DNA from: Bacilli bacterium
Lineage (GTDB): Bacteria; Bacillota_I; Bacilli_A; ML615J-28; CAG-313
Assembly (NCBI GenBank): GCA_017411715.1
Contig: JAFQPO010000014.1
Coordinates: forward strand, 6,161 to 70,160
Reading direction: 5' to 3'
Length of the DNA stretch: 64,000 nt
Shown: one piece after another, positions 15,362-32,939 of the stretch
Layout: the number at the start of each line of letters is the position of its first letter
Numbering within the stretch: the first letter of the stretch is position 1
The notes under the pieces: model-generated
Databases searched by the model: none
What the model was told of the DNA's origin: nothing
Seen by the model: only the letters and a program-made list of their open reading frames with translations
Translations under genes and position numbers: made by a program

Positions 15362-15435
15362 ATAATAAAATAATTTAGAAAAACACTTCACTTTTTTAAA
15401 GTTTTGTTACTATATTAATGAAAGGAGATATCATT

Positions 15436-16992
15436 ATGCAAAATAAAGAACAATTAAAAGAATTAATAGCTAATGAATATTTAAATAGATTCTTAACATT
15501 TTACATAAGTAGAACATCATCAATACAAGATGCTGAAGACTTATCACAAAAGGCTGCCTGTGAATGTTTAGATGCACTTAACCGTGTTGATGAAATAAAA
15601 AATGTTAATGCTTATTTTTGGAGTGTTGCTCATAATGTATATAAGAATTATTTAAATAGAAGAGATAATTATATTCTAGATGATGATTATTGTAAAATGC
15701 AAATTGCAGATATTAGTTCTAAAGAAGAAAGTGAAAAACAAGAATTACATAATGATATTAGAAAATCACTAAGTATCCTTTCAGGTTTATATCGTAAGAT
15801 AATAGTAATGTATTATTATCATGAATTAAAAATTAAAGATATTTCAGAACAACTTACTATTAGCCAAGATATGGTTAAGTATTATTTGTCTAATGGTAAG
15901 AAAAAATTAAAGGAGATTTATAATATGAATAAAGAAATCGGTGAAGTAAGTTTTAATCCTAAAGATTTTTCAATTTATTATTCAGGAATTGACTTTGCTA
16001 GTGTTAATGTATGGGAGTTATTTAAAAGAAAGTTGCCTTGTCAAATTGCATTAATATGTTATGCAAAACCTAAAACAGTTAGTGAAATTGCAAGTGTTGT
16101 TGGATGCAGTAGTTGTTTTATAGAAGATGAACTTTCAATTTTATTAAATGCTGGAGTAATTGTTGAAATAGTAAAAGATAAATATCAAACTAATTTTTAC
16201 ATTATTAGCAAAGTTGAACTTGATGTTGTTGATGAGTTATATAAAAAAATGTATGATGAACATACAAAAGAAGTAATTAAAGTTTTTGATGAACATTTTG
16301 AACAAATAAAACAAACAGGAATTTATAACTATAGTGCAACAGTAGATCAATATAAATGGATATTTGCTGATAGAGTAGCAGATATGGATAGAAGAAATAT
16401 GTTTACTAAAGATTCAGATTATCCTAGAATTTTATCGTGTGGTGCAAGAGGACTAGTGTTTGGACTTGAAGCTCCTACTCCAAAAGGAACTTGCGGACAA
16501 ACACCAACATATTTAAACAATCATACATTATGGGCAAGAGATTTATGGATGATAAAAGGTTATAGTTCAAATCAACCTACTTTAAGAGATAAAAGAACAG
16601 CTCAAACAGTTATTGATGTTTATAATGGCATTATTGATGATAACAAAGAAGAGTTATATGCTTATTTAATTAAGAACAATATTTTAGTAAAAGATAGTGG
16701 CATCTTAAAAACAAATATTGCATATTTAAATAAGGAATTTTTAGAATTAATGAAAACTATTAATAAAGAATTATATATTAAATTAGAGAAAAATACTAAT
16801 GAAATTAAAGAGTATATTACTAAAATAGTTAGCAAATCAATACCTAGTAATTTAAAAGACTATATTAATGGATATGTTATTACACTTATGCAGTTCTTTG
16901 CTGGTAATAAGATTATAGAAGCACTTATTGAAAATGGCTTCTTAAATGATAAAATGAAGAATATACAAATAAGCTATTTTATTGATAAGTAA
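15436..16992 (+). CDS. sigma-70-family (ECF-like) protein with about 340-aa C-terminal extension
   Basis: Region 2 (DAEDLSQKAACE) and region 4 HTH (KDISEQLTISQDMVKYYLSNGKKKLKE); ATG with AAAGGAG RBS; paralog of 25133..26770. Confidence 0.6.
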   Translation: MQNKEQLKELIANEYLNRFLTFYISRTSSIQDAEDLSQKAACECLDALNRVDEIKNVNAYFWSVAHNVYKNYLNRRDNYILDDDYCKMQIADISSKEESEKQELHNDIRKSLSILSGLYRKIIVMYYYHELKIKDISEQLTISQDMVKYYLSNGKKKLKEIYNMNKEIGEVSFNPKDFSIYYSGIDFASVNVWELFKRKLPCQIALICYAKPKTVSEIASVVGCSSCFIEDELSILLNAGVIVEIVKDKYQTNFYIISKVELDVVDELYKKMYDEHTKEVIKVFDEHFEQIKQTGIYNYSATVDQYKWIFADRVADMDRRNMFTKDSDYPRILSCGARGLVFGLEAPTPKGTCGQTPTYLNNHTLWARDLWMIKGYSSNQPTLRDKRTAQTVIDVYNGIIDDNKEELYAYLIKNNILVKDSGILKTNIAYLNKEFLELMKTINKELYIKLEKNTNEIKEYITKIVSKSIPSNLKDYINGYVITLMQFFAGNKIIEALIENGFLNDKMKNIQISYFIDK

Positions 16993-17263: not shown

Positions 17264-18346
17264 ATGGATTTAGGAAACAATATTAAATTTTATAGAACAC
17301 AAAAAAAGATGACTCAAGAAGAGTTAGCAGAATTACTTGGGACAACATCTAAATCTATTTCAAGATGGGAGCAAAGTTTAACATATCCTGATATTTCATT
17401 ATTGCCTTTTATTGCAAATATTTTTGAAATAACTGTTGATGAACTATTAGGTGTAGAAAAAATTAAACAAGATGAATATGTTAAAGATTTAAAAAACAAG
17501 GCAAATGAGTATCAAAAAAATAACGATTACGATAATGAGTTAATCTTATGGCAAGAGGCATATAAAAAATTGCCTAACAATGAAGAAATCAAAATTTGTT
17601 TAATTTCAATAATGAATACAATTAATATAGTTACAAATAAGGTTAAGTATTCTAGTGAAATAATTAAATTTGCAGAAAGCATTTTAGAAAAATCAACTAA
17701 TAATGTGAACAGAATTTATGCAACACAATGTCTTTTTGATTTGTTCATTCAAATGAATAATTTTGAAATGGCAGAATATTATTTAAAGCAGTTGCCAAGA
17801 AATCTTTCTTTTACATATGACGTAGCAAAAATTAGATATTTAAAAAATGAAGAATTACTTTATGCTATTCAGAAAAACATCGGTGAATTTATAGATGAAA
17901 TTATTAGAGAATCAGAAAAGATAATCAGAAATAATAACACCAATTTAACGGATGAATATAAAAAAGAATATCTTGAAAGATTAATTAAAATTGAAGAGTT
18001 AGTTTTTGTTAAAGATAATGATTATGGTTATAATGCAATATCAATTATTTTTGACTATATTGAATTGACAAAATTAGAGATTAGAACTACAAATAATAAA
18101 AATAAGGTACTATCATATTTTAAAGAAATGATCTATCCTTTAGAATATATTATTAATTTTAAACCACATAATATATTATCGCCTTTTATGAATAAAGTTC
18201 GATGCGAATTTATTGGAGGCTATAGTAATGCATCTATAGATTTAAAGAAACGCATAATTAAAGAACTTGATAATAATGTATTTGAAAAATATCGTTTTAC
18301 TGATGAATATAAAGAATTAATTTATCAAGTAAATGAATTAAAATAA
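17264..18346 (+). CDS. HTH-XRE transcriptional regulator with TPR-like C-terminal domain
   Basis: MTQEELAELLGTTSKSISRWEQ plus a helical repeat C-terminus. Confidence 0.6.
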   Translation: MDLGNNIKFYRTQKKMTQEELAELLGTTSKSISRWEQSLTYPDISLLPFIANIFEITVDELLGVEKIKQDEYVKDLKNKANEYQKNNDYDNELILWQEAYKKLPNNEEIKICLISIMNTINIVTNKVKYSSEIIKFAESILEKSTNNVNRIYATQCLFDLFIQMNNFEMAEYYLKQLPRNLSFTYDVAKIRYLKNEELLYAIQKNIGEFIDEIIRESEKIIRNNNTNLTDEYKKEYLERLIKIEELVFVKDNDYGYNAISIIFDYIELTKLEIRTTNNKNKVLSYFKEMIYPLEYIINFKPHNILSPFMNKVRCEFIGGYSNASIDLKKRIIKELDNNVFEKYRFTDEYKELIYQVNELK

Positions 18347-19175: not shown

Positions 19176-20897
19176 ATGAAAAAGTATTTATTTGTATTTT
19201 TAATTTTGTTGTTATTAACTGGTTGTAATGTTCAAAATAGTCATTCTCATAATCAATGTCCAGAATGTAGCAAATGTATATCTGAAGATTGTAATGGTAC
19301 TGAAAATGAAAAATGTCAAGGACACCAACTAGTACATACACATACTGAATGTCAAGAATGTGGCAAATGTATTGCAGAAGATTGTGATGGAGCAGAAGAA
19401 CTAAAGTGTAGTGGTCACGAACATCATATATATAAATTAACAATAATTGATGAAGATAATTTAATTTATGATAAGCCTACTGAAACAAGTTGTGAATCAG
19501 ATACTAAAATTGTGATGCACTCTCACCCAATAATAGATGCTGATTTAGCAATGTATATAAATGGTGAGTTTCATTCTATTCAAAATACAATAATGGTAAA
19601 CGATGAAACTGTTTGGGAATATTCATTTATAATGCCAGAAAGAGATACTACTATTGAATTTAAGACTCAAACATTAGAATATTTTGATGTAAAAACTGTT
19701 CTTGGTATTCCCTCATTAACAAGAGAAGATATTTTAAGAATAATTTATCATACTATTAATTTAAGTAGCGAACCCATACCGGGTAGTTTAAGAATAGTAA
19801 TTAGTACTACAGATTATGAAGATATTACTTATATGTTATGTTTTTTAGATGCAAATGTGGTTGAAGATAGAAGTAATAATTGGCAAGAGGATGCTGGTAG
19901 TTGTGAGAAGTATTCAATTTGTACAATTGATAAAAAATACGATTTTGAAATAATTAATGGATATATATCAGTTAATAATAAACACTATAAACTTCTAGGG
20001 TATGGACCTGGCATGAGTTATGGAATTATTACTTCTGCTTTTAATACTAATTTAGATTCATATGAGGCATATACATTAGATGGCACAAAAATTGGTGATT
20101 TTAATGGTTTATCTGAATTTGAGTTTTATGAAATTAAGGCTCCTTTAACAGGTGTAGATGATTATGGATATTTAGAAACTGAGTTTGGAAGAATTTATAT
20201 TCACGATTCAAAGACATTTTACATCAAAGATGGCGAAAACTATACTTACTATAAATTAATTTGGGAATGGGAAAAAGACTTTAGCGATATATTTAACAAA
20301 CACACACATACCGAATGTGAAGAATGTGGAAAATGTATAGCAGAAGATTGTAATGGAACTGAAAATGAAAAATGTCAAGGCCATCTTATTATTACTGATG
20401 CAATACCAGTACCTATTACAAGTATTACTTTCAATAATGGAAATGAATTAGAAGAATTTATAAAAAATCATGAAAACTTTAATAAATGGGTCTACATGAA
20501 TGAAATTATTAAAAATAATGAAACTATAAATGTTTATAATAAAAGCTATAGTTTTAATTATGATGAAGAAAAAGATGGCAAATATATTAATCCATATCTT
20601 ACAATAAGTTTCGCATTATATAGTGAAGTATTAGGAACAGATACTGGAGATGACGATGTTTTATATCATTCTATTTCATTTTTAATTAATATTAGACCTA
20701 ATGATTTAAAAGATAACATTAGTTATAAATTTTGCAAATATAGTAATAATAAAAATATGTACAATAACGTAGTGCTTATTTACAGTGGAGATAATGTTAT
20801 TGGAGAGGCATATTATTACACAAAGCTAGATGTTACTAAAAACTGGATAATTGAATTTTTAAATGAAAACTTATTAATGCCAATTAAAATAAAATAA
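19176..20897 (+). CDS. lipoprotein with three Cys-rich repeats (CxxCxKCIxEDCxGxExxKCxGH)
   Basis: Lipobox LLLTGC. Repeats at aa 28-52, 59-82 and 383-406 are near-identical at the DNA level; no recognised domain. Confidence 0.6.
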   Translation: MKKYLFVFLILLLLTGCNVQNSHSHNQCPECSKCISEDCNGTENEKCQGHQLVHTHTECQECGKCIAEDCDGAEELKCSGHEHHIYKLTIIDEDNLIYDKPTETSCESDTKIVMHSHPIIDADLAMYINGEFHSIQNTIMVNDETVWEYSFIMPERDTTIEFKTQTLEYFDVKTVLGIPSLTREDILRIIYHTINLSSEPIPGSLRIVISTTDYEDITYMLCFLDANVVEDRSNNWQEDAGSCEKYSICTIDKKYDFEIINGYISVNNKHYKLLGYGPGMSYGIITSAFNTNLDSYEAYTLDGTKIGDFNGLSEFEFYEIKAPLTGVDDYGYLETEFGRIYIHDSKTFYIKDGENYTYYKLIWEWEKDFSDIFNKHTHTECEECGKCIAEDCNGTENEKCQGHLIITDAIPVPITSITFNNGNELEEFIKNHENFNKWVYMNEIIKNNETINVYNKSYSFNYDEEKDGKYINPYLTISFALYSEVLGTDTGDDDVLYHSISFLINIRPNDLKDNISYKFCKYSNNKNMYNNVVLIYSGDNVIGEAYYYTKLDVTKNWIIEFLNENLLMPIKIK

Positions 20898-20899
20898 AT

Positions 20900-20973
20900 C
20901 AATCAAGCCAGTTAACAACAAAAACGTTAGCTGGCTTTTTAAATAGTAGAAATAAGTGAGGAAATGTGGTATA
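20900..20973 (+). repeat. family-2 terminator/promoter cassette, copy 1
   Basis: GCCAGTTAAC..GTTAGCTGGC hairpin plus TTTTTAAATAGTAGAAATAAGTGAGGAAATGTGGTATAAT. Confidence 0.75.
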
Positions 20974-21055
20974 ATTGATAATATTAAGGGATGAAACCAA
21001 TTGTTGCATTGACTAACTAATACTTAGTGAGTATAATGGTGGTAGAGGTGATAAA

Positions 21056-21577
21056 ATGAATAATAGAATAAAACAATTTAGATTAAAGAATAAACTTACT
21101 CAACAACAGTTGGCAGATTTAATGGATGTTACTCGCCAAGCTGTTACAAGATGGGAAAGTGGTACAGTTGAACCATCAACTGAAAACTTAATTTCACTTG
21201 CACAAATATTTGACTGTAGTGTAGATGAATTAATATGCAATGATTTAATAACTCCAAAAGAGAAAATGGTCATTAAAGAGGTATTAGTTAAAGAAGAAAA
21301 GAAACCATCTTTTTGGAGTATAAATAAAGCAAACATATTTTTATACATTATTAGTGCTATTGCATTTATAACATACTTAGTATTAAGATTTACTACAAAT
21401 TATTCAATAACTGTAGTTGCAGTTGTACTATTTCCAATAATCATTATTTCGACTATAATAAGTTTAATATGTAATATTGATGAAATAAAAGATAAAGTAA
21501 ATTTTAAAAAGTTTATACTACCGCCAATATTAATTATAGTTGGCTTTATATTTTTGGGTATTTTATTGGAGTTTTAA
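21056..21577 (+). CDS. membrane-anchored HTH-XRE regulator
   Basis: N-terminal HTH (LTQQQLADLMDVTRQAVTRWE) plus three C-terminal TM helices. Confidence 0.6.
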   Translation: MNNRIKQFRLKNKLTQQQLADLMDVTRQAVTRWESGTVEPSTENLISLAQIFDCSVDELICNDLITPKEKMVIKEVLVKEEKKPSFWSINKANIFLYIISAIAFITYLVLRFTTNYSITVVAVVLFPIIIISTIISLICNIDEIKDKVNFKKFILPPILIIVGFIFLGILLEF

Positions 21578-21591
21578 AGGGAAGACAGTAT

Positions 21592-22269
21592 ATGAAGAAA
21601 TTTATAATAGTCATAGTATGTTTGATTTTGATGTTGCTCACAGGTTGTGTTCAAGATTCAAAAAATTCACATAATAGTTGTTTAGAATGTGGAAAATGTA
21701 TAGCTGAAGATTGTAATGGATTAGAAGAGGAAAAATGTCAAGGACATCAAGTAATTCATCAACATATTGAATGCAAAGTGTGTGGTAAGTGTGTAGATGT
21801 GAAATGCGATGGCAAAGAAGATGAAAGATGTAACAAAACTTATCAGGTAACGTTAGAATCGCATCAATATATATCATTTACTGATTCGTTAGAAGATCTA
21901 CAATTTTACATTATTCAAGACTACAGCCAATATATTGAATTCATTGAAAAAAATGAAATTAAGGAAATATATTATGATGAAGAGAATAATATCCATTATA
22001 ATGAAGAAATAGCAAATCAATTTACTGAAGAATTTTTTATTGATAGTGCACTTGTCTTAATATCATATTTTACAGCAACTTCATTAGATGATTTAACTGT
22101 TATAAAAAGTTATGAATTAGAAAATGGTATTTTAAATATAAAATTTGGTGTCCCTAAAACAGATTTAATTCCAAAGAATAATTGTTATTTGGTATATATG
22201 TTTAAATGTGACAAACATATATTAGATGATTTTGTAACAGTAGAATATAAGTTTGGAGTAAAAAACTGA
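21592..22269 (+). CDS. lipoprotein with two Cys-rich repeats (same motif as 19176..20897)
   Basis: Lipobox LLTGC; CLECGKCIAEDCNGLEEEKCQGH and CKVCGKCVDVKCDGKEDERC. Confidence 0.55.
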   Translation: MKKFIIVIVCLILMLLTGCVQDSKNSHNSCLECGKCIAEDCNGLEEEKCQGHQVIHQHIECKVCGKCVDVKCDGKEDERCNKTYQVTLESHQYISFTDSLEDLQFYIIQDYSQYIEFIEKNEIKEIYYDEENNIHYNEEIANQFTEEFFIDSALVLISYFTATSLDDLTVIKSYELENGILNIKFGVPKTDLIPKNNCYLVYMFKCDKHILDDFVTVEYKFGVKN

Positions 22270-22324
22270 CATTGTTAAAAATATTAAATATGTCGGTTTA
22301 TGATGCTCACAAATAAAATAACCA

Positions 22325-22398
22325 ATTCAAGCTAGTTAATCAAAAAACGTTAGCTGGCTTTTTAAATAGTAGAAATAAATGAGGAAATGTGGTATAAT
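22325..22398 (+). repeat. family-2 terminator/promoter cassette, copy 2
   Basis: Near-identical to copy 1. Confidence 0.75.
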
Positions 22399-22422
22399 AT
22401 TTACAAGAAGAGGTTTAATTAA

Positions 22423-23781
22423 ATGAAAAATATTACTGATGAACAAAAAATATATGAACTATCATTAATATGGAAAGAAGCTGAGTATAATTTTGCTTTT
22501 TGGCATAAATTTGACAAATCTTTTAATTGGGATGAAGAATATAAAAAAGCATTGGAAAGAGTATTAAAAACTAAAAATATATATGAATATTATAAAGAAC
22601 TAATGAGATTTGTTGCATTATTGAAAGATGGACACACCGGTGTGTGGTTGCCTAAAGAAGTGATTAATTCAGATGAGTATTTTTCTACAATACCGCTTTT
22701 GGTTCAGTTTATTGATAATGAATATGTGATTACGAATGTAGATGTTTCAATTAAAGATATTGTTAAAAGATATAGTATTATTAGAATGATTGATGGAATT
22801 CCAACTAAGAAGTATATTAAAGAAAATATCTATCCATATATTTGGCATGAAAAAGAAGATAGTTGTGCATACCAAACAATTGCTTATTTATTTAGAGGTC
22901 CATTAAATAGTAATGTAGAATTACTACTTGAAGATAATGGTGTTGAATATAATGTTATACTAACTAGAACAAATAAGAAAATACAATATTACTATCCCCA
23001 AGTAAAATTTAGTTCAGAACCCCTAACAACAATTTATGATTCTAAATCACATATGATTCAAATGACAAATGATGGAATTACCATTATTACAATTCCTTCA
23101 ATGATGAATGATGAGTTAGGTGAAGAAATATTTAAGAATTATGAATTATTAAAAAATGCTAAAGGATATATAATTGATATTAGAAATAATGGTGGAGGTA
23201 ACAGTAATAATGCTGACCATGTTGCATCACTATTTATAGGTAATTCCTTTAGAACTGATAATGCATATCATCCAATCCATATTGGAGCTTATAAAGCATG
23301 GGGAAAATATAATAAAGTTAATGAAATGACTGAGGAAGAGTTTAAACAGCAATATGGTGATAATCCTTTCTATGAAAAAATATATAAAATTTGTAATCAC
23401 GTATACTATGAACATAATGATTCAGATACTGAAATTCAAGATGTACCAGGTAAATTAGATGGTCCAATTGTTATTTTAAGTTCAGCATATACTGCATCAG
23501 CGGCAGAAAACTTTATAAATGTCATGAAATATAACACTAATGCAATTATAATCGGAAGTGCTAGTTTTGGATCAACAGGACAACCACTTATGTATGAATT
23601 AGAAAGTGGTGGCGGGTTTAGAATTTGTACTAGAAGAAGTTTAGCATTAGATGGTTCTGAATTTATTAATTATGGATTTAAACCAGATATTGAATGTTGT
23701 TTAAGTATTGATGATTTAAAAACAAATGCAGATTCAGTAATGAAAAAAGCTTTAGAAACTATAAGAGAGAAAATTCATTAA
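22423..23781 (+). CDS. S41-family peptidase (C-terminal processing/tail-specific protease-like)
   Basis: N-terminus LSLIWKEAEYNFAFW; catalytic-Ser region SAYTASAAENF. Confidence 0.55.
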   Translation: MKNITDEQKIYELSLIWKEAEYNFAFWHKFDKSFNWDEEYKKALERVLKTKNIYEYYKELMRFVALLKDGHTGVWLPKEVINSDEYFSTIPLLVQFIDNEYVITNVDVSIKDIVKRYSIIRMIDGIPTKKYIKENIYPYIWHEKEDSCAYQTIAYLFRGPLNSNVELLLEDNGVEYNVILTRTNKKIQYYYPQVKFSSEPLTTIYDSKSHMIQMTNDGITIITIPSMMNDELGEEIFKNYELLKNAKGYIIDIRNNGGGNSNNADHVASLFIGNSFRTDNAYHPIHIGAYKAWGKYNKVNEMTEEEFKQQYGDNPFYEKIYKICNHVYYEHNDSDTEIQDVPGKLDGPIVILSSAYTASAAENFINVMKYNTNAIIIGSASFGSTGQPLMYELESGGGFRICTRRSLALDGSEFINYGFKPDIECCLSIDDLKTNADSVMKKALETIREKIH

Positions 23782-23820
23782 AATGAGTAAATCTTTTATA
23801 ACCATAAGTATTTAAAAAGG

Positions 23821-24591
23821 ATGGATAGTATGAGTAATAAATCAAAAGAAAGAGCGTTTGAAATTATAAAATATTATGTTGACCAAATAAGTAAATTACC
23901 TTTTATAAAATCAATAATATTAGATGGAAGTTTATCAGATGATACATATACGGGTAATAAAGGCAGTGATATTGATATTGTAAATGTTATAGAGTCTAAT
24001 AATTATTATGAAGATAAACTATATTTGTTAAAGTTAATAGAAGACATTGAAAATTTTACTAACAAAGATATTCCTATTTCAAAAGTGGTTTATAACTATA
24101 GTCAATTATTCCATCCTTATGATTATAATTTTGATGTGAATAAAACCAATAAAGATTTAATTGAACTTCCAATTGAAGTATTAAGGATAAAATATTCTGG
24201 CAAAACTCTATATGGTGAAGATATAATTAGTGTTATAGATCAACCAACAAAAGAAGATGTTTTATATTGCAAAGAACTTAATCAACAATTACTTATGAAA
24301 CAAGCTAGTGAGAATCCCAAAGGGTATTCTTCATATTTGGAAACAATTAAGAATCCACCTATGAGTATATTGTGCCAAATTGTAATAACTACAGCAATGG
24401 AAGATTATTTTTTGGTTTTGGGTAAAAATTGTTCTAGTAAACGTAAGATATTAGAATGTATCGAAAAGGATTGGCCTCAATACGAAAAAATCGAATTATT
24501 AAGAATATGTCATAAGTATCGTGTTAATAATAGTTTGTCTAAAGAAGAAGAGATATTAGCGGGCAAATTATATAAAGAATTTTTTGTATAA
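23821..24591 (+). CDS. nucleotidyltransferase-domain protein (Pol-beta superfamily; possibly ANT-like)
   Basis: LDGSLSDDTYTGNKGSDIDIV motif of the GS...D.D type. Confidence 0.45.
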   Translation: MDSMSNKSKERAFEIIKYYVDQISKLPFIKSIILDGSLSDDTYTGNKGSDIDIVNVIESNNYYEDKLYLLKLIEDIENFTNKDIPISKVVYNYSQLFHPYDYNFDVNKTNKDLIELPIEVLRIKYSGKTLYGEDIISVIDQPTKEDVLYCKELNQQLLMKQASENPKGYSSYLETIKNPPMSILCQIVITTAMEDYFLVLGKNCSSKRKILECIEKDWPQYEKIELLRICHKYRVNNSLSKEEEILAGKLYKEFFV

Positions 24592-24820
24592 CTATTGTTG
24601 ATTAAATCATTATATCTCAACATCCTAACCCCATTTTAACACCTGTAGCAGACTTTCAAAAAGCTATTACAAACAAACCAAGGTAAGAAATCAAATGAGG
24701 ATGTGGACCAAATTTGAGACAATTAGACTGTGAGGTAATACTTGCAGTCTTTTCTATTTCTTAAAAAAAAGACTTATAGTCCCATACACCATATAAAAAG
24801 ATAGATATCGTAGCAATTAG

Positions 24821-25132: not shown

Positions 25133-26770
25133 ATGAATGAGAAAGAACAATTAATTGAACAACTGGTGGCACAAAAGGATAAAGTATTCTTTTATTGTGT
25201 GAAACGTTGTAATAGTATAATAGATGCTGAAGATTTATCACAAGATATACTGCTTGATATTATGGTTAATATTAACAAAGGTATTAAGATAGAAAACTTT
25301 GATTATTATATTTGGCAAATATGTAAAAACCATTATAGTAAGTATGTAGCTAGAATTGTTAAAGATAGAGATAATATAATGTTTGTTGAAGAAATAGATG
25401 AACCCGGGAATGAACTTTCTTCATTAGACAAACTAATTAATTCTGAAAAACTCGCAATGATTAATGCTGCAATAAAATTATTATCAAGTGATTATTCAGA
25501 AATACTTTATTCATATTATATTGAAGATAGATCGTTATCATTTATAGCAGAAAAATTGAATCTACCTCTTGGAACTGTCAAAAGAAGATTATTTGACATA
25601 AGGAATAAACTTAAGGAGTATTTAAAAATGGAAAGATTAAATGGAAGAAAAGCATTTGTACCTAAAGAATATGAAACACATAGAAGTGGTGGAGCAAGTT
25701 TAAATCCTGAAGAATACACATATGGATTGATCCAACAAAACTTATTAATGCATTCGTATGGTAATCCATGTAGTTTAGAAGATTATTCGTTGGAAATGGG
25801 AATAAGCTTACCATACATTGAAAATATAGTTGATAGTTTAGAGCATGCAACATTATTAATAAAAGATGAAAATGGAAAATATTTAACTAATTTCATAATG
25901 GTAGATAAAAATATAGATCAAAAGGTATTAAAATTAGTTAGACAAAGGGCAAAGGAATATACGAAGTTAATAGTTGAATATTGTAAAAAACATTTTAATG
26001 ATTGGAAAGTTTTAGTCAATAATCCTTTACTTGATGATAATAAATTAATGTGGTCGTATATGTTTAATACTAATAGAAAAGTTGAGTATTTAGATTGCAC
26101 TAAAGAAGAAACCAAAAAAACAATGAGACATCACAGTCATATTGTTGAAGGTGGTAGTTGGGATTTTTGTATGTCAGAAGCTTATGATTCAGAAATAAAA
26201 AATTTCCAAATTAATGAATGTATAGATGGAAATGGTGTGATAGGATTACAAGGATTATTATATCCAGGGCAAAGGAAAATTGATGGTATTAATTCAGAAG
26301 CATTAAAATGTATAAGATGGGATAATAGTGCGAATTGGGATGCTGATTTTGAATTATTTGGATATTTGCTAAAAAATAAAAATATCAAATATTCAGATTG
26401 TGTATATACTCTTAAATCTGCTGTTGATAATATGGTTAAAGAAAACTACTTGCGAATTGAAGATGATACTATAAAATTCAATTTTGTATTATTAGATTTT
26501 GAAAAAGCAACAATTAATAAAGATGATGAATATAGTACTGAATTAATTCCAGCTAAACAAAAAAGAAAAGAAATCACTAATGAAATTATAGATATATTTA
26601 AAGATGTTATTCCTGAATATTTATACAAAGACTTAGATTACATTGCTAATTCATACTTTGTAGCAAATATGAGACAATATGTAGTAATGGCTTTTGAAGA
26701 AGAAGGTTTGATTAAACCAGTTAATGAAAATAGATTTGTATATAATATGTTTTGTTGGGAAAGAAAATAA
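25133..26770 (+). CDS. sigma-70-family (ECF-like) protein with about 370-aa C-terminal extension
   Basis: Region 2 DAEDLSQDILLDI; region 4 SLSFIAEKLNLPLGTVKRRLFDIRNKL; same architecture as 15436..16992. Confidence 0.6.
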   Translation: MNEKEQLIEQLVAQKDKVFFYCVKRCNSIIDAEDLSQDILLDIMVNINKGIKIENFDYYIWQICKNHYSKYVARIVKDRDNIMFVEEIDEPGNELSSLDKLINSEKLAMINAAIKLLSSDYSEILYSYYIEDRSLSFIAEKLNLPLGTVKRRLFDIRNKLKEYLKMERLNGRKAFVPKEYETHRSGGASLNPEEYTYGLIQQNLLMHSYGNPCSLEDYSLEMGISLPYIENIVDSLEHATLLIKDENGKYLTNFIMVDKNIDQKVLKLVRQRAKEYTKLIVEYCKKHFNDWKVLVNNPLLDDNKLMWSYMFNTNRKVEYLDCTKEETKKTMRHHSHIVEGGSWDFCMSEAYDSEIKNFQINECIDGNGVIGLQGLLYPGQRKIDGINSEALKCIRWDNSANWDADFELFGYLLKNKNIKYSDCVYTLKSAVDNMVKENYLRIEDDTIKFNFVLLDFEKATINKDDEYSTELIPAKQKRKEITNEIIDIFKDVIPEYLYKDLDYIANSYFVANMRQYVVMAFEEEGLIKPVNENRFVYNMFCWERK

Positions 26771-29646: not shown

Positions 29647-30726
29647 ATGAAGAAAATATTAGTTAGTATGTTTTTATTAGTATTTGGATTATGTTTAGTT
29701 GGGTGTGAAAATATTGGTAATAGTAAAACTTATGAATTAACAATTCAAAATCAAACCGAATATGAATTAATAGGAATAAAGAATGAATATAAAGGAGATG
29801 AAGAAGTAGAAATCAAAATGATATATGAAGATGATGTATGTACTTTTGCATTTTTAGATGGTGAATTATTGGGTGAACTAACTGGAATTGATTCAATAAA
29901 ATTTAATATGCCTGCAAAAGATTCAGTATTGACAATCAGTTATTCGGAAGAAATATATAAAGTAAATGTTATTGATAATTTTGACTTAATAGAAGAAGTG
30001 CTTAATGATTATTACGCACCTGAAGAAACAATAATCTTTCATGTATCACATGAACTATATGATAATATTACAGTAATTATTAATGGGAAAGTAGAAGAAG
30101 GAATTGATCCGTTAATTGGAACTAATAACTTCAAAACATATTTAGTTAGAATGTCCGAAGGAGAATGTGAAATAAAAGTAACTGTTAATGGACTAAGTGA
30201 TTACTCATGTAATGATAATTTACATCATTATGAAGAAGAAATAAAAAAAGTTGATAACTCGTATATTAAAGAATCTACGTGTAAATTATGTGGTGAAATA
30301 GTTCAAGAAGAAATAACTAAAATTAAATTAGATACTATAATTTTATATTTTGGTAGTTATTCAGATGATAATTCATTTGTATTATTTGTAAAGGAATATA
30401 ATTTATCAAATAGAAAATATCTAATTATAGATAATGTTGAAGCATATTATGAGATATATCCTAATATTCCACGTATGAATAAAGAATTATTGAGTGATGA
30501 AGAAGCAGATGAATTCTTTAAAAATAATATAATGGTATTACATATAAGATATATTAGTGGTACTTTAGATTTTGTCCCTGTTAATTATTATTATAACACA
30601 ATACTTAATAATATAATTATGGAATATACAAATGATGTTTCTGGTGACTATATAACACAATTTTTAGGTAATACCCTTGATATAATTACAATTCCTAAAA
30701 AGTACTATAATAAAATTAATAAATAA
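29647..30726 (+). CDS. lipoprotein, function unknown
   Basis: Signal plus lipobox LCLVGC. Confidence 0.5.
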   Translation: MKKILVSMFLLVFGLCLVGCENIGNSKTYELTIQNQTEYELIGIKNEYKGDEEVEIKMIYEDDVCTFAFLDGELLGELTGIDSIKFNMPAKDSVLTISYSEEIYKVNVIDNFDLIEEVLNDYYAPEETIIFHVSHELYDNITVIINGKVEEGIDPLIGTNNFKTYLVRMSEGECEIKVTVNGLSDYSCNDNLHHYEEEIKKVDNSYIKESTCKLCGEIVQEEITKIKLDTIILYFGSYSDDNSFVLFVKEYNLSNRKYLIIDNVEAYYEIYPNIPRMNKELLSDEEADEFFKNNIMVLHIRYISGTLDFVPVNYYYNTILNNIIMEYTNDVSGDYITQFLGNTLDIITIPKKYYNKINK

Positions 30727-30729
30727 CCA

Positions 30730-30801
30730 ATCAAAGCTAGTTAACCAAAAAGTTAGCTGGCTTTTTAAATAGTAGAAATAAATGAGAAAATGTGGTATAA
30801 T
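30730..30801 (+). repeat. family-2 terminator/promoter cassette, copy 3
   Basis: AAGCTAGTTAACC..GTTAGCTGGCTTTTTAAATAGTAGAAATAAATGAGAAAATGTGGTATAAT. Confidence 0.75.
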
Positions 30802-31348: not shown

Positions 31349-31425
31349 CTAATTAAGTCGGTTAGCCAACTTTGGGTTAGTTGGCTTTATAAATAGTAGA
31401 AATAAATGAGTAAATGTGGTATAAT
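31340..31425 (+). repeat. family-2 terminator/promoter cassette, copy 4 (variant hairpin)
   Basis: AGCCAACTTTGGGTTAGTTGGCT plus TTTATAAATAGTAGAAATAAATGAGTAAATGTGGTATAAT. Confidence 0.7.
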
Positions 31426-31466: not shown

Positions 31467-32018
31467 ATGATAATAGAGAATAAAATTGATAAAATAAAAC
31501 TTCAAGATAGTATGAAACTATTTATTAAGTATGCCATGCTAGATCAGACAAAGAAAGTAAAAAAATTGATAATTATAAGCTTAATAGCTTGTGTAGTTGT
31601 AATTTTAGGTAATATTGTTTTACAAAAGTTATATATTTTAATATTTGGTATATTTGGAATTTTATTTAATATTTTCTTAATATTTAGATATAGAAATACT
31701 CAAAGAAAACAATATGAGAAAGTACTTAAAGAGCAATTAAATAAATATGGTGAAATAGATATCATAACTAGAAAACATGTTTTTGATAGCCGTAAAATGT
31801 TACTTGAAATTAAAAACGGTGAAAATATAGATACATTAAATTTTAATTTTGATAATTATTATAAGTTATGGATTGAAGAAGATAATAAAGTTGTTGTTAT
31901 ACAATTTGGTGAAAAACCAAATGGTAAATTAGTAGTAATTTATTGTGATGATGTAAATGGATTTAAACAATATTGTGTTATTAATAATATTAATTTTGAA
32001 ATAGTAAAGACTAAATAA
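31467..32018 (+). CDS. hypothetical membrane protein
   Basis: Two TM helices after residue 30. Confidence 0.4.
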   Translation: MIIENKIDKIKLQDSMKLFIKYAMLDQTKKVKKLIIISLIACVVVILGNIVLQKLYILIFGIFGILFNIFLIFRYRNTQRKQYEKVLKEQLNKYGEIDIITRKHVFDSRKMLLEIKNGENIDTLNFNFDNYYKLWIEEDNKVVVIQFGEKPNGKLVVIYCDDVNGFKQYCVINNINFEIVKTK

Positions 32019-32021
32019 CTA

Positions 32022-32093
32022 AACAAAGTCAGTTAACCAACGTAAAGGTTAGCTGGCTTTTTAAATAGTAGAAATAAATTAGGAAATGTGGTA
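32022..32093 (+). repeat. family-2 terminator/promoter cassette, copy 5
   Basis: GTCAGTTAACC..GGTTAGCTGGCTTTTTAAATAGTAGAAATAAATTAGGAAATGTGGTATAAT. Confidence 0.75.
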
Positions 32094-32193
32094 TAATCAT
32101 AGCATGCAACAAATTAGATACATAATGTAAATACTTGTTGCTGTAATATATAAATGATATATTATATACTAAAATCGAAAGGAGGATATTATT

Positions 32194-32610
32194 ATGACAA
32201 TAGCAGAAAAGATAAAACAATTGAGAAAAGATAATAGCATGACTCAAGAAGATTTAGCAGAAAAGTTAAATGTATCTCGTCAAACCATTTCTAAATGGGA
32301 AACAAGTGTTACAATACCAGATGCGGATAATATAGTAGCAATTTCTAAATTGTTTAACATCACAACTGACGAATTATTAGATTATAGGGTAGAAACTGTT
32401 CAAAAGAAAAAACAATTTATAATGGATATGGCAGTATTGCTATTTGGAATTATTGGATTTATCGTATTTGCAATTTTGCTTATGACTAATCAAATAGACG
32501 AAACATCATCAGTAATTACAATTAATGGTTATGGAATTGCAGCAATTCTTTTCTTAATACTAATTATTGCTTTTATCATAGTAATGATTAAACGAAATGC
32601 AAAAAAATAA
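32194..32610 (+). CDS. membrane-anchored HTH-XRE regulator
   Basis: MTQEDLAEKLNVSRQTISKWE plus two TM helices. Confidence 0.6.
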   Translation: MTIAEKIKQLRKDNSMTQEDLAEKLNVSRQTISKWETSVTIPDADNIVAISKLFNITTDELLDYRVETVQKKKQFIMDMAVLLFGIIGFIVFAILLMTNQIDETSSVITINGYGIAAILFLILIIAFIIVMIKRNAKK

Positions 32611-32845: not shown

Positions 32846-32917
32846 AGGTCAGTTAACCAATAAAAAAGTTAGCTGTCTTTTTAAATAGTAGAAATAAATG
32901 AGGAAATGTGGTATAAT
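32846..32917 (+). repeat. family-2 terminator/promoter cassette, copy 6
   Basis: GGTCAGTTAACC..GTTAGCTGTCTTTTTAAATAGTAGAAATAAATGAGGAAATGTGGTATAAT. Confidence 0.75.
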
Positions 32918-32939
32918 TTATAATGTGAGGTATTGATGT

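What the first reader, a model, noticed from the sequence alone, without database searches (positions are those of the whole stretch)
19176..22269. Novel Cys-rich repeat (H-T/S-E-C-x-E-C-G-K-C-I-A-E-D-C-x-G-x-E-x-E-K-C-Q-G-H) in two lipoproteins
Lipoprotein 19176-20897 carries three copies (nt about 19255-19330, 19350-19420, 20320-20390) and lipoprotein 21592-22269 carries two (about 21679-21840). The repeats are near-identical even at the DNA level. Each is five Cys spaced C-x2-C-x2-C-x4-C-x7-C followed by GH. This is reminiscent of metal (Zn/Fe-S/Cu) binding sites but matches no standard ferredoxin, radical-SAM or zinc-ribbon spacing. It sits directly after the lipobox and again mid-protein. 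Both genes follow XRE-type regulator genes (17264 and 21056).
Basis: seen in the sequence. Interest (0 to 1): 0.7.

Follow-up and report, generated by a model that had tools for sequence, protein, structure and literature searches.

The report
Cys/His linker repeat in gut lipoproteins
Two neighbouring surface lipoproteins of an uncultured gut bacterium carry five copies of an undescribed 31-residue cysteine/histidine module that most likely binds metal (probably zinc) and acts as a stiff connector between the membrane anchor and the working domains, and the repeat is also a site where lipoprotein genes recombine.

Summary
ORF A (19176-20897) has three copies and ORF B (21592-22269) two copies of a 31-aa unit, HxHxxCxxCGKCxxxxCxGxxxxKCxGHxxx, found nowhere else in the window. 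Pfam, NCBIfam and PDB sequence profiles do not cover it, and two AlphaFold runs gave only low-confidence models with no fold match.

An exhaustive profile search found about 110 true protein clusters. Nearly all are Sec/lipobox surface proteins of uncultured mammalian-gut Bacilli, with 1-16 units each. Units sit right after the lipid-anchor Cys or between unrelated domains (GH5, solute-binding protein, GDPD, transglutaminase, NAGPA, Ig-like, Flg_new). Copy number differs between proteins of the same architecture (1, 4, 6, 10).

In 359 distinct units, 88% have exactly eight His+Cys. His-to-Cys swaps occur at ligand positions. When an N-terminal His is lost, a new His or Cys appears in the C17-C25 loop. 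Units have almost no hydrophobic residues.

Best reading, inferred and not shown: a self-contained metal-stapled (probably two-zinc) connector or stalk module. A related contig fuses ORF A to ORF B by a crossover inside a unit. The link to XRE regulators is local only. I class this as a new variant of a known kind, of moderate interest.

The parts
19176..20897 (+). ORF A, a 573-aa lipoprotein with layout SP-U-U-D1-U-D2
   Evidence: ORF and translation. LPAM_1 hit of 27 bits against a cut-off of 20. Exact protein found on 14 gut-metagenome contigs.
19176..19226 (+). Sec/SPII signal peptide of ORF A, ending in lipobox L-T-G-C (Cys17)
   Evidence: Sequence and LPAM_1. There is no twin-arginine motif.
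19242..19334 (+). Unit A1 (aa 23-53), HSHNQCPECSKCISEDCNGTENEKCQGHQLV
19335..19427 (+). Unit A2 (aa 54-84), HTHTECQECGKCIAEDCDGAEELKCSGHEHH
19428..20300 (+). Domain D1 of ORF A (aa 85-375), with no known family. Homologues without units exist (P0026-P0037).
20301..20393 (+). Unit A3 (aa 376-406), HTHTECEECGKCIAEDCNGTENEKCQGHLII. It is a domain-swap boundary and the crossover site seen in L022.
20394..20894 (+). Domain D2 of ORF A (aa 407-573). ORF A aa 371-573 (unit A3 plus D2) is 90% identical to the stand-alone lipoprotein P0124. D2 is distantly related, through intermediates, to the C-terminal domain of ORF B.
21592..22269 (+). ORF B, a 225-aa lipoprotein with layout SP-U-U-D2'
21592..21648 (+). 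Signal peptide of ORF B, ending in lipobox L-T-G-C (Cys19)
   Evidence: Sequence. It is 58% identical to the N-terminus of ORF A when aligned together with the units.
21664..21756 (+). Unit B1 (aa 25-55), NSHNSCLECGKCIAEDCNGLEEEKCQGHQVI. H1 is replaced by N.
21757..21849 (+). Unit B2 (aa 56-86), HQHIECKVCGKCVDVKCDGKEDERCNKTYQV. It is a terminal-type unit without GH and is the second crossover partner in L022.
21056..21577 (+). XRE HTH protein with a hydrophobic C-terminal half, just upstream of ORF B. This is local context only. It lies in the segment absent from the L022 chimera.
20881..20980 (+). Stem-loop, T-run and extended -10 cassette downstream of ORF A. It is one of six copies in the window.
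22311..22398 (+). The same cassette downstream of ORF B

Best explanation
The 31-residue unit is a self-contained, extracytoplasmic mini-domain held together by metal rather than by a hydrophobic core. Its eight conserved ligands are H1, H3, C6, C9, C12, C17, C25 and H28. They most likely bind two zinc ions, picked up after Sec export.

One plausible ligand assignment is a C6-x2-C9 knuckle paired with a C25-x2-H28 knuckle, with H1/H3 paired with C12/C17. This assignment is my guess and was not tested.

Single units join unrelated globular domains. Tandem arrays just after the lipid-modified Cys form an acidic, stiff and probably protease-resistant stalk that holds the working domain away from the membrane.

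A side effect at the DNA level is that the conserved unit sequence gives homologous recombination a foothold. That recombination swaps or fuses lipoprotein domains.

Shown here: the repeat exists, is conserved and is undescribed; the proteins are Sec/lipobox surface proteins; units occupy anchor-proximal and inter-domain positions; copy number varies; ligand count is conserved and ligand loss is compensated; one crossover lies inside a unit.

Inferred: metal binding itself, the identity of the metal, the stoichiometry, the site assignment and the rigidity.
For: **Ligand bookkeeping.**
- In 273 distinct canonical units, all five Cys are invariant. H1 is present in 263, H3 in 270, and position 28 is H in 227 and C in 21.
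- The His+Cys count is exactly 8 in 317 of 359 units.
- His-to-Cys swaps occur at position 28 (CQGC, or CxC).
- When H1 or H3 is missing, a new His or Cys appears in the C17-C25 loop in 41 of 50 units. With HxH intact this happens in only 3 of 309 (Fisher p about 2e-41). The samples are not independent, but the effect appears in several sequence-distinct subtypes.
- Isolated units keep the full ligand set, so the module is self-contained.

**Composition.** Units are 17% Cys, 9.5% His and 22% Asp+Glu, with under 1% Phe+Tyr+Trp+Met combined and about 3% Leu. There is no hydrophobic core to fold around.

**Location.** Of 162 family proteins, 111 have a lipobox-like N-terminus and none has a twin-arginine motif. 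In 65 of those 111 the first unit starts within 20 residues of the lipid-modified Cys.

**Connector behaviour.**
- Tandem period is 28-36 aa with a mode of 31. Otherwise units are separated by domains of about 180-200 or about 322-326 aa.
- Partner domains are diverse and extracytoplasmic: GH5, SBP_bac_1/8 behind seven units, Transglut_core, NAGPA, GDPD, Ig-like, Flg_new, LRR_5 and OB-fold.
- GDPD lipoproteins of the same architecture carry 1, 6 or 10 units, and a probable fourth member carries 4.

**Structure prediction.** AlphaFold gives the same knuckle-like pattern without regular secondary structure in two runs.

**Recombination.**
- L022 aligns to window 19248-20375 and then to 21757-24772, and the two alignments overlap inside a unit.
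- Close homologues of ORF A stay 85-95% identical only up to the end of unit A3.
Against: There is no direct evidence of metal binding, and the model coordinates could not be inspected.

About 20% of array-terminal units lack the eighth ligand. The variant class HxCxxxC...C has nine candidate ligands. A strict count of eight ligands and two metals is therefore not universal.

Five Cys and three His would also fit one metal plus two disulfides.

The spacer function is inferred only from position and copy-number variation. The envelope type of the host bacteria is unknown.
Confidence: 0.5

Rival explanations
1. The units are a metal-capture or buffering device. They would act as surface zinc (or other metal) scavengers that hand the metal to an uptake system, as the streptococcal polyhistidine-triad (Pht) proteins do.
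For: The units are surface-anchored and rich in ligands and acidic residues. Unit junctions read H28-x2-3-H1-x-H3, and in arrays with a 30-aa period this is literally HxxHxH. That is the Pht motif, which binds Zn through three His and one Glu and passes it to AdcAII (PMC3842936). Arrays of up to 16 units would store many ions.
Against: Many proteins carry single units between enzyme domains, and 50 of the 163 unit-bearing proteins have only one unit. Sites rich in thiolate ligands usually hold Zn too tightly to transfer it; that is general knowledge and was not tested here. There is no sequence relation to Pht in the Pfam scans. No Pfam-recognisable metal-uptake domain was seen in the neighbouring genes where Pfam data were available (window locus and L018-L023). 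The neighbours in L001-L017 were not annotated.
Confidence: 0.15
2. The unit is a disulfide-knotted extracellular module, possibly with one metal ion bound by the histidines, comparable to eukaryotic EGF-like or LDL-receptor class A repeats.
For: The location is extracytoplasmic and the unit is a small Cys-rich repeat with no hydrophobic core. Five Cys and three His could give two disulfides plus a His3Cys site. My data cannot exclude this.
Against: The canonical unit has an odd number of Cys. His-to-Cys exchange and ligand relocation are typical of metal sites and not of disulfide partners. The hosts are gut anaerobes from a reducing habitat (record titles). CxxC and CxxH knuckles are classical zinc geometry; that is general knowledge.
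Confidence: 0.12
3. The unit is an iron-sulfur or other redox-active metal centre (ferredoxin-like or rubredoxin-like). Arrays would then form an electron path across the envelope.
For: CxxCxxC followed by a fourth Cys resembles the ferredoxin motif, and there are weak Fer4_10 hits. Arrays place many centres in a row next to the membrane. The habitat is anoxic and probably rich in sulfide.
Against: The spacing is x4 with no following Pro. Fer4_10 scores 9.5-9.9 bits against a cut-off of 25.5. None of 162 proteins has a twin-arginine signal, which is the usual export route for cofactor-loaded proteins. The partner domains are hydrolases and binding proteins, not redox enzymes. Three conserved His do not fit a cubane site.
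Confidence: 0.05
4. The unit matters mainly at the DNA level. It would be a conserved joint that lets paralogous lipoprotein genes exchange domains for surface variation, while the peptide is only a tolerated linker.
For: The L022/L023 gene is an in-frame fusion of ORF A and ORF B with the crossover inside a unit. Homologues of ORF A diverge exactly after unit A3. ORF A aa 371-573 (unit A3 plus D2) also occurs as a separate lipoprotein, P0124. Signal peptide plus units are shared by otherwise unrelated ORFs A and B.
Against: Selection acts on the protein. Unit copies within this genome are only 57-78% identical in DNA, yet ligand residues are invariant across distant genomes and ligand losses are compensated. 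This explanation can hold alongside the best explanation rather than replace it.
Confidence: 0.08

Closest known systems
Zinc ribbon / zinc knuckle mini-domains (rubredoxin-like CxxC knuckles)
   Same: Both have two knuckles, here C6-x2-C9 (with the typical CxxCGK turn) and C25-x2-H28. Both are very small and their stability depends on the ligands.
   Different: The unit has eight conserved ligands in 28 residues rather than four, plus an extra HxH and C12/C17. It sits outside the cytoplasm and occurs in arrays with a 31-aa period. There is no sequence or fold match.
Two-zinc, eight-ligand domains: RING/PHD cross-brace and the DnaJ cysteine-rich domain (CxxCxGxG x4)
   Same: Both have eight Cys/His ligands arranged as four pairs, which suggests two tetrahedral sites. 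The DnaJ domain is bacterial and elongated. These comparisons rest on my own knowledge of those families.
   Different: Those domains are 40-80 residues long, cytoplasmic, have hydrophobic cores and are not tandemly repeated. No Pfam hit links them to the unit. A cross-brace arrangement here is only my guess.
Streptococcal polyhistidine triad proteins (PhtA/B/D/E)
   Same: Both are Gram-positive surface proteins with repeated short metal-binding motifs. Unit junctions give H-x2-3-H-x-H, close to the Pht motif HxxHxH (PMC3842936).
   Different: The Pht site is His3+Glu inside a three-stranded unit with no Cys, and its role is zinc transfer to AdcAII. Here five Cys dominate, there is no homology, and the units sit between diverse enzyme domains.
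Rod-forming spacer repeats of Gram-positive surface proteins (for example the G5-E repeats of SasG/Aap)
   Same: Both are tandem repeats of variable number that project a functional domain from the cell surface. Zinc is involved in the Aap/SasG system. This comparison rests on my own knowledge.
   Different: G5-E repeats are about 125-residue beta-sheet modules anchored by sortase, and zinc mediates their dimerisation rather than their folding. There is no sequence relation.
4Fe-4S ferredoxin motif CxxCxxCxxxCP
   Same: Both begin with the CxxCxxC triplet.
   Different: The unit has an x4 gap, no Pro and three conserved His. It is exported by Sec, and its Pfam scores are below threshold.

Membership tests
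Bacterial lipoprotein (SPII/Lgt substrate) | N-terminal signal peptide ending in the lipobox [LVI][ASTVI][GAS]C | tested here: met
   ORF A ends in LLTGC at Cys17, with LPAM_1 at 27 bits against a cut-off of 20. ORF B ends in LLTGC at Cys19. Of 162 family members, 111 have a lipobox-like N-terminus. Lipidation itself was not tested.
4Fe-4S ferredoxin (Pfam Fer4 clan) | CxxCxxCxxxCP cluster motif that scores above the Pfam gathering threshold | tested here: not met
   The spacing is CxxCxxCxxxxC, followed by D/N-G rather than Pro. Fer4_10 scores 9.5-9.9 bits against 25.5.
4Fe-4S ferredoxin (Pfam Fer4 clan) | Cofactor inserted in the cytoplasm, so exported forms use a Tat (twin-arginine) signal | tested here: not met
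   None of 162 family proteins has an RR motif in the first 30 residues.
Zinc ribbon / zinc knuckle structural Zn sites | Pairs of CxxC or CxxH knuckles supplying four ligands | tested here: met
   C6xxC9 is invariant. C25xxH28 is present in 227 of 273 canonical units, and in 21 more with C at position 28.
Zinc ribbon / zinc knuckle structural Zn sites | Fold similarity to solved zinc ribbons | tested here: inconclusive
Zinc ribbon / zinc knuckle structural Zn sites | Stoichiometric zinc bound | not testable with these tools
   This needs ICP-MS, Co(II) substitution or a solved structure.
C2H2 zinc finger | C-x2-4-C-x12-H-x3-5-H with a hydrophobic core | tested here: not met
   Only the CPECGK knuckle matches. 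About 20 eukaryote-type C2H2 proteins in the profile search are false positives, with no unit under the strict or the loose pattern.
Polyhistidine triad (Pht) proteins | HxxHxH motif within the Pht repeat fold, and sequence homology | tested here: not met
   No Pht family appears in the Pfam or NCBIfam scans. An H-x2-3-H-x-H string arises only at unit junctions.
Disulfide-rich extracellular repeats (EGF-like, LDLR class A) | An even set of six Cys with fixed disulfide pairing, and a family HMM match | tested here: not met
   The canonical unit has five Cys plus three conserved His, and there is no Pfam hit. Disulfide status itself cannot be tested here.
SCIFF / ranthipeptide-type Cys-rich precursors | Short cytoplasmic precursor peptide with an adjacent radical-SAM maturase | tested here: not met
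   The units lie inside large exported lipoproteins. There is no NCBIfam hit, and no radical-SAM gene flanks ORFs A or B.

The most novel reading that the evidence does not exclude
The unit is a previously unseen fold that binds two metal ions through eight ligands within 28 residues, which would make it one of the most compact two-metal modules known. It works outside the cytoplasm. Arrays of up to 16 units would form metal-stapled rods on the surface of uncultured gut Bacilli, and their stiffness or length would depend on metal supply. The conserved coding sequence would also serve as the joint at which surface lipoprotein domains are shuffled. A still bolder version, in which redox-active iron centres form an electron path, is not strictly excluded. 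I put that version at 0.05 or less.
Probability: 0.3. Interest if true: 0.75.

Novelty: new variant of a known kind. Interest (0 to 1): 0.55.

Why it matters
Small Cys/His metal modules are textbook intracellular elements. A family used as an extracytoplasmic connector or stalk, in tandem arrays on bacterial lipoproteins, has not been described in the libraries and literature I could search.

If metal binding is confirmed, three things follow:
- A new domain family could annotate hundreds of currently blank regions in gut-metagenome proteins.
- A very compact metal-stapled building block would become available for protein engineering.
- The surface architecture of uncultured, low-GC gut Bacilli would be linked to zinc availability in the gut.

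The recombination event shows concretely how these bacteria rebuild surface lipoproteins from modules.

Tried and rejected
- **Pfam-A and NCBIfam** scans of both ORFs, of a di-unit, of a 10-unit array and of multi-unit proteins found no family for the repeat.
- **PDB sequence searches** with the unit profile and with both full ORFs gave only CPECGK knuckle matches to C2H2 fingers, or nothing.
- **AlphaFold2** on the di-unit with 23-sequence and 60-sequence alignments gave pLDDT 64.6 and 63.8. A deeper alignment did not help.
With the di-unit profile it returned only 12 short fragments. The exhaustive representative search was the useful one.
- **Full-text searches** for the motif spacing, for peptide strings and for general terms found no relevant paper.
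- **Cluster look-up** for organism names returned no names, apart from one 'Clostridia bacterium' label.
- **XRE linkage** was rejected as a family feature.
- **Direct BLASTP** of ORF A against ORF B shows similarity only in the signal peptide and units. The distant relation between D2 and the ORF B C-domain appears only through intermediates.
- **Rfam and tRNA scans** of the window found only three tRNAs, none near the locus.
Full report
**1. The observation**

The window is low in GC (22-33%), and most of its long ORFs are on the + strand. ORF A (19176-20897, 573 aa) and ORF B (21592-22269, 225 aa) both start with a Sec-type signal peptide that ends in the lipobox L-T-G-C. ORF A passes the Pfam lipoprotein model (LPAM_1, 27 bits against a cut-off of 20).

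A six-frame regex for C-x2-C-x2-C-x4-C-x5-9-C finds five hits in the whole 64 kb. The repeat finder groups them into a single five-member family.

Read as full periods, the units are 31 aa long:
- A1, 19242-19334
- A2, 19335-19427
- A3, 20301-20393
- B1, 21664-21756
- B2, 21757-21849

Three points need correcting:
- Pairwise identity between units is 57-78% for DNA and 35-71% for protein, so they are not near-identical.
- Unit B2 ends CNKTY instead of CxGH.
- ORF A is separated from the XRE gene at 17264 by a methyltransferase gene.

**2. The repeat is not covered by known families**

- Pfam-A and NCBIfam give no family for the repeat, whether the query is the ORFs, a di-unit, a 10-unit array or multi-unit homologues. 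The best hits are all below threshold: Fer4_10 at 9.5-9.9 bits against 25.5, zf_UBZ at 11 bits, and zf-HYPF at 21 bits with no passing stretch.
- A PDB profile search matches only the seven-residue CPECGK knuckle of C2H2 fingers.
- The full ORFs have no relative in the PDB.
- Four full-text searches found nothing.

**3. The family**

A phmmer-type search with ORF A returned 44 proteins. The unit recurs in proteins of other architectures: GH5 cellulases (P0039, P0041), Flg_new/LRR_5 proteins (P0014, P0042) and a DUF6273 protein (P0044).

An exhaustive HMM search with a di-unit profile against 1.84 billion cluster representatives gave 133 hits. About 20 of these are eukaryote-type C2H2 arrays that match only the knuckle. 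About 110 are true members, with 1-16 units each.

Other partner domains are Transglut_core, SBP_bac_1/8, Big_2, aBig_2, OB-fold, NAGPA, GDPD, Bact_surface_Ig-like, MBG_2 and a pilin-like N_methyl leader.

A scan of one genome per GTDB species found 17 loci. They lie in MAGs labelled Bacilli bacterium (goat, sheep, water deer, human), uncultured Mollicutes UMGS116, Staphylococcus sp. CAG:324 and Erysipelotrichaceae, plus one Lachnospiraceae bin and one Eubacteriales bin. The patterns used for that scan were narrow, so this is a lower bound. The window itself comes from gut-metagenome scaffolds.

**4. Where units sit**

Of 162 family proteins, 111 have a lipobox-like N-terminus and none has a twin-arginine motif. 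In 65 of the 111, the first unit starts within 20 residues of the lipid-modified Cys.

Successive units are either tandem (period 28-36 aa, mode 31) or separated by domains of about 180-200 or about 322-326 aa.

P0061 places seven units between the lipobox and a solute-binding domain. GDPD lipoproteins of the same architecture carry 1 (L008), 6 (L001) and 10 (L005) units. L002, whose N-terminus is near-identical to that of L001 but which was not scanned against Pfam, carries 4.

This is how a connector or stalk module behaves. A catalytic or ligand-specific domain would not vary this way.

**5. Evidence for a metal site**

In 273 distinct units with canonical spacing:
- C6, C9, C12, C17 and C25 are invariant.
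- H1 is present in 263 and H3 in 270.
- G10, G19, K24 and G27 are near-invariant.
- Position 28 is His in 227 and Cys in 21.

Across 359 distinct units, the His+Cys count is exactly eight in 317. The last ligand can be supplied as CxxH, CxxC or CxC.

When H1 or H3 is absent, a new His or Cys appears in the C17-C25 loop in 41 of 50 units. When HxH is intact, this happens in only 3 of 309. The Fisher p-value is inflated by shared ancestry. Even so, the pattern recurs in several sequence-distinct subtypes:
- HELVP...DVESHEK
- HIFEP...QYEHEK
- EEHEF...DETLHEK
- TAIIP...NVAEHEK
- PEHTM...TEHTK
- KIHTL...DCLDDEK
- the whole HxCxxxC...xxxxCxxxKC class

Isolated units keep the full ligand set. A Cys or missing last ligand occurs almost only in last or single units (50 of 54).

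Units contain 17% Cys, 9.5% His and 22% Asp+Glu. Phe, Tyr, Trp and Met together are under 1%, and Leu is about 3%. Nothing else in the unit could hold a fold together.

His/Cys interchange, ligand relocation and a constant ligand count are what one expects of metal coordination. I infer two tetrahedral sites, most plausibly zinc. The reasons are the CxxC and CxxH knuckles and the fact that the proteins leave the cell unfolded through Sec.

The assignment of ligands to sites is a guess. One metal plus two disulfides cannot be excluded.

**6. Structure prediction**

Two AlphaFold2 runs, with 23-sequence and 60-sequence alignments, gave mean pLDDT 64.6 and 63.8. Both showed the same pattern: isolated bridges at residues 5 and 12, and a short turn at residues 21-23.

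This outcome is expected for a metal-dependent mini-domain and does not discriminate between the models.

**7. Modular shuffling**

ORFs A and B share only the signal peptide and the units. Most close homologues of ORF A are 85-95% identical up to residue 406, the end of unit A3, and then diverge. ORF A residues 371-573 are 90% identical to a stand-alone lipoprotein, P0124. ORF B residues 56-225 are 92% identical to the C-terminus of P0015, which is otherwise like ORF A.

On contig L022:
- The P0015 gene is followed by the same S41 peptidase gene that follows ORF B in the window.
- L022 418-1545 matches window 19248-20375 (91.6%), and L022 1471-4487 matches window 21757-24772 (95.9%).
- The two alignments overlap by 75 nt inside a unit. 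A three-way alignment puts the switch at the start of the unit.

Relative to the window, 1,456 bp are missing and the genes are fused in frame. The missing segment holds D2 of ORF A, the XRE-TM gene, and the signal peptide and first unit of ORF B. Units are therefore crossover points.

**8. The XRE idea**

Only L009, a close relative with the same XRE-methyltransferase-lipoprotein order, has an XRE gene upstream. In L023 the upstream genes encode ABC ATPases. The association is local.

**9. Verdict**

The repeat is a real, undescribed Cys5His3 module of extracytoplasmic proteins in uncultured gut Bacilli.
- Best explanation: a metal-stapled connector or stalk (confidence 0.5).
- Rivals: metal scavenging (0.15), a disulfide-knotted module (0.12), a role mainly as a DNA recombination joint (0.08) and a redox Fe-S centre (0.05).
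- Classification: a new variant of a known kind (small Cys/His metal modules).
- Interest: 0.55.

Noticed in passing
window 20881-20980, 22311-22398, 30711-30801, 31376-31425, 32013-32097, 32850-32922: A roughly 90-nt intergenic cassette occurs six times. It consists of a stem-loop (AAGCCAGTTAAC...GTTAGCTGGCTT), a T-run and the conserved string AAATAGTAGAAATAAATGAGGAAATGTGGTATAAT, which contains an extended -10 box. It looks like a terminator-plus-promoter unit placed between accessory genes, including after both lipoprotein genes.
   Followed up: partly
L022 337-1983 and L023 4401-6047, compared with window 19248-20375 and 21757-24772: In related gut-metagenome contigs, ORF A and ORF B are fused in frame by a crossover inside a unit. 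The fusion removes 1,456 bp, including the XRE-TM gene. In L022 a MazG-like gene, two DNA methyltransferase genes and a DpnII-type gene lie downstream of the segment shared with the window.
   Followed up: yes
window 29647-30726; also P0014 aa ~410-460 and P0039 aa ~120-240: A second, different Cys-rich motif (roughly H-x-Y...C-x2-C-G-E, with T-C-T-x-x-G...C-x-x-C) recurs in lipoproteins of the same organisms and is also absent from the Pfam hits. The signal peptide of ORF 29647 (MKKILVSMFLLVFGLCLVGC) is shared with several homologues of ORF A, so signal peptides are shuffled too.
   Followed up: no
window 15418-16992 and 25133-26770: Two proteins of 524 and 545 aa each have an N-terminal ECF-type sigma-70 domain (regions 2 and 4, shown by Pfam for the first and judged from sequence likeness for the second). 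Each also has a C-terminal extension of about 350 aa with no known family.
   Followed up: no
window 21056-21577 and 32194-32610: Two small proteins each have an XRE-type N-terminal helix-turn-helix and a hydrophobic C-terminal half that looks membrane-spanning. The HTH was confirmed by Pfam only for the first. The membrane segments were judged from the sequence by eye.
   Followed up: no
window 19428-20300 (D1 of ORF A) and 20394-20894 / 21850-22266 (D2-type domains): The passenger domains of both lipoproteins have no Pfam, NCBIfam or PDB relative. D2-type domains form a fast-diverging family (25-40% identity) that is nearly always preceded by a unit. Terminal units in front of D2 often change their last ligand (CQGC, CNKTY).
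   Followed up: partly
L009 (CAYQBT010000135.1, labelled uncultured Lachnospiraceae): This 4.8-kb contig has the same XRE-methyltransferase-lipoprotein order as the window. The window is far lower in GC (about 27%) than is usual for Lachnospiraceae, to my knowledge, so the bin label may be a binning error.
   Followed up: no
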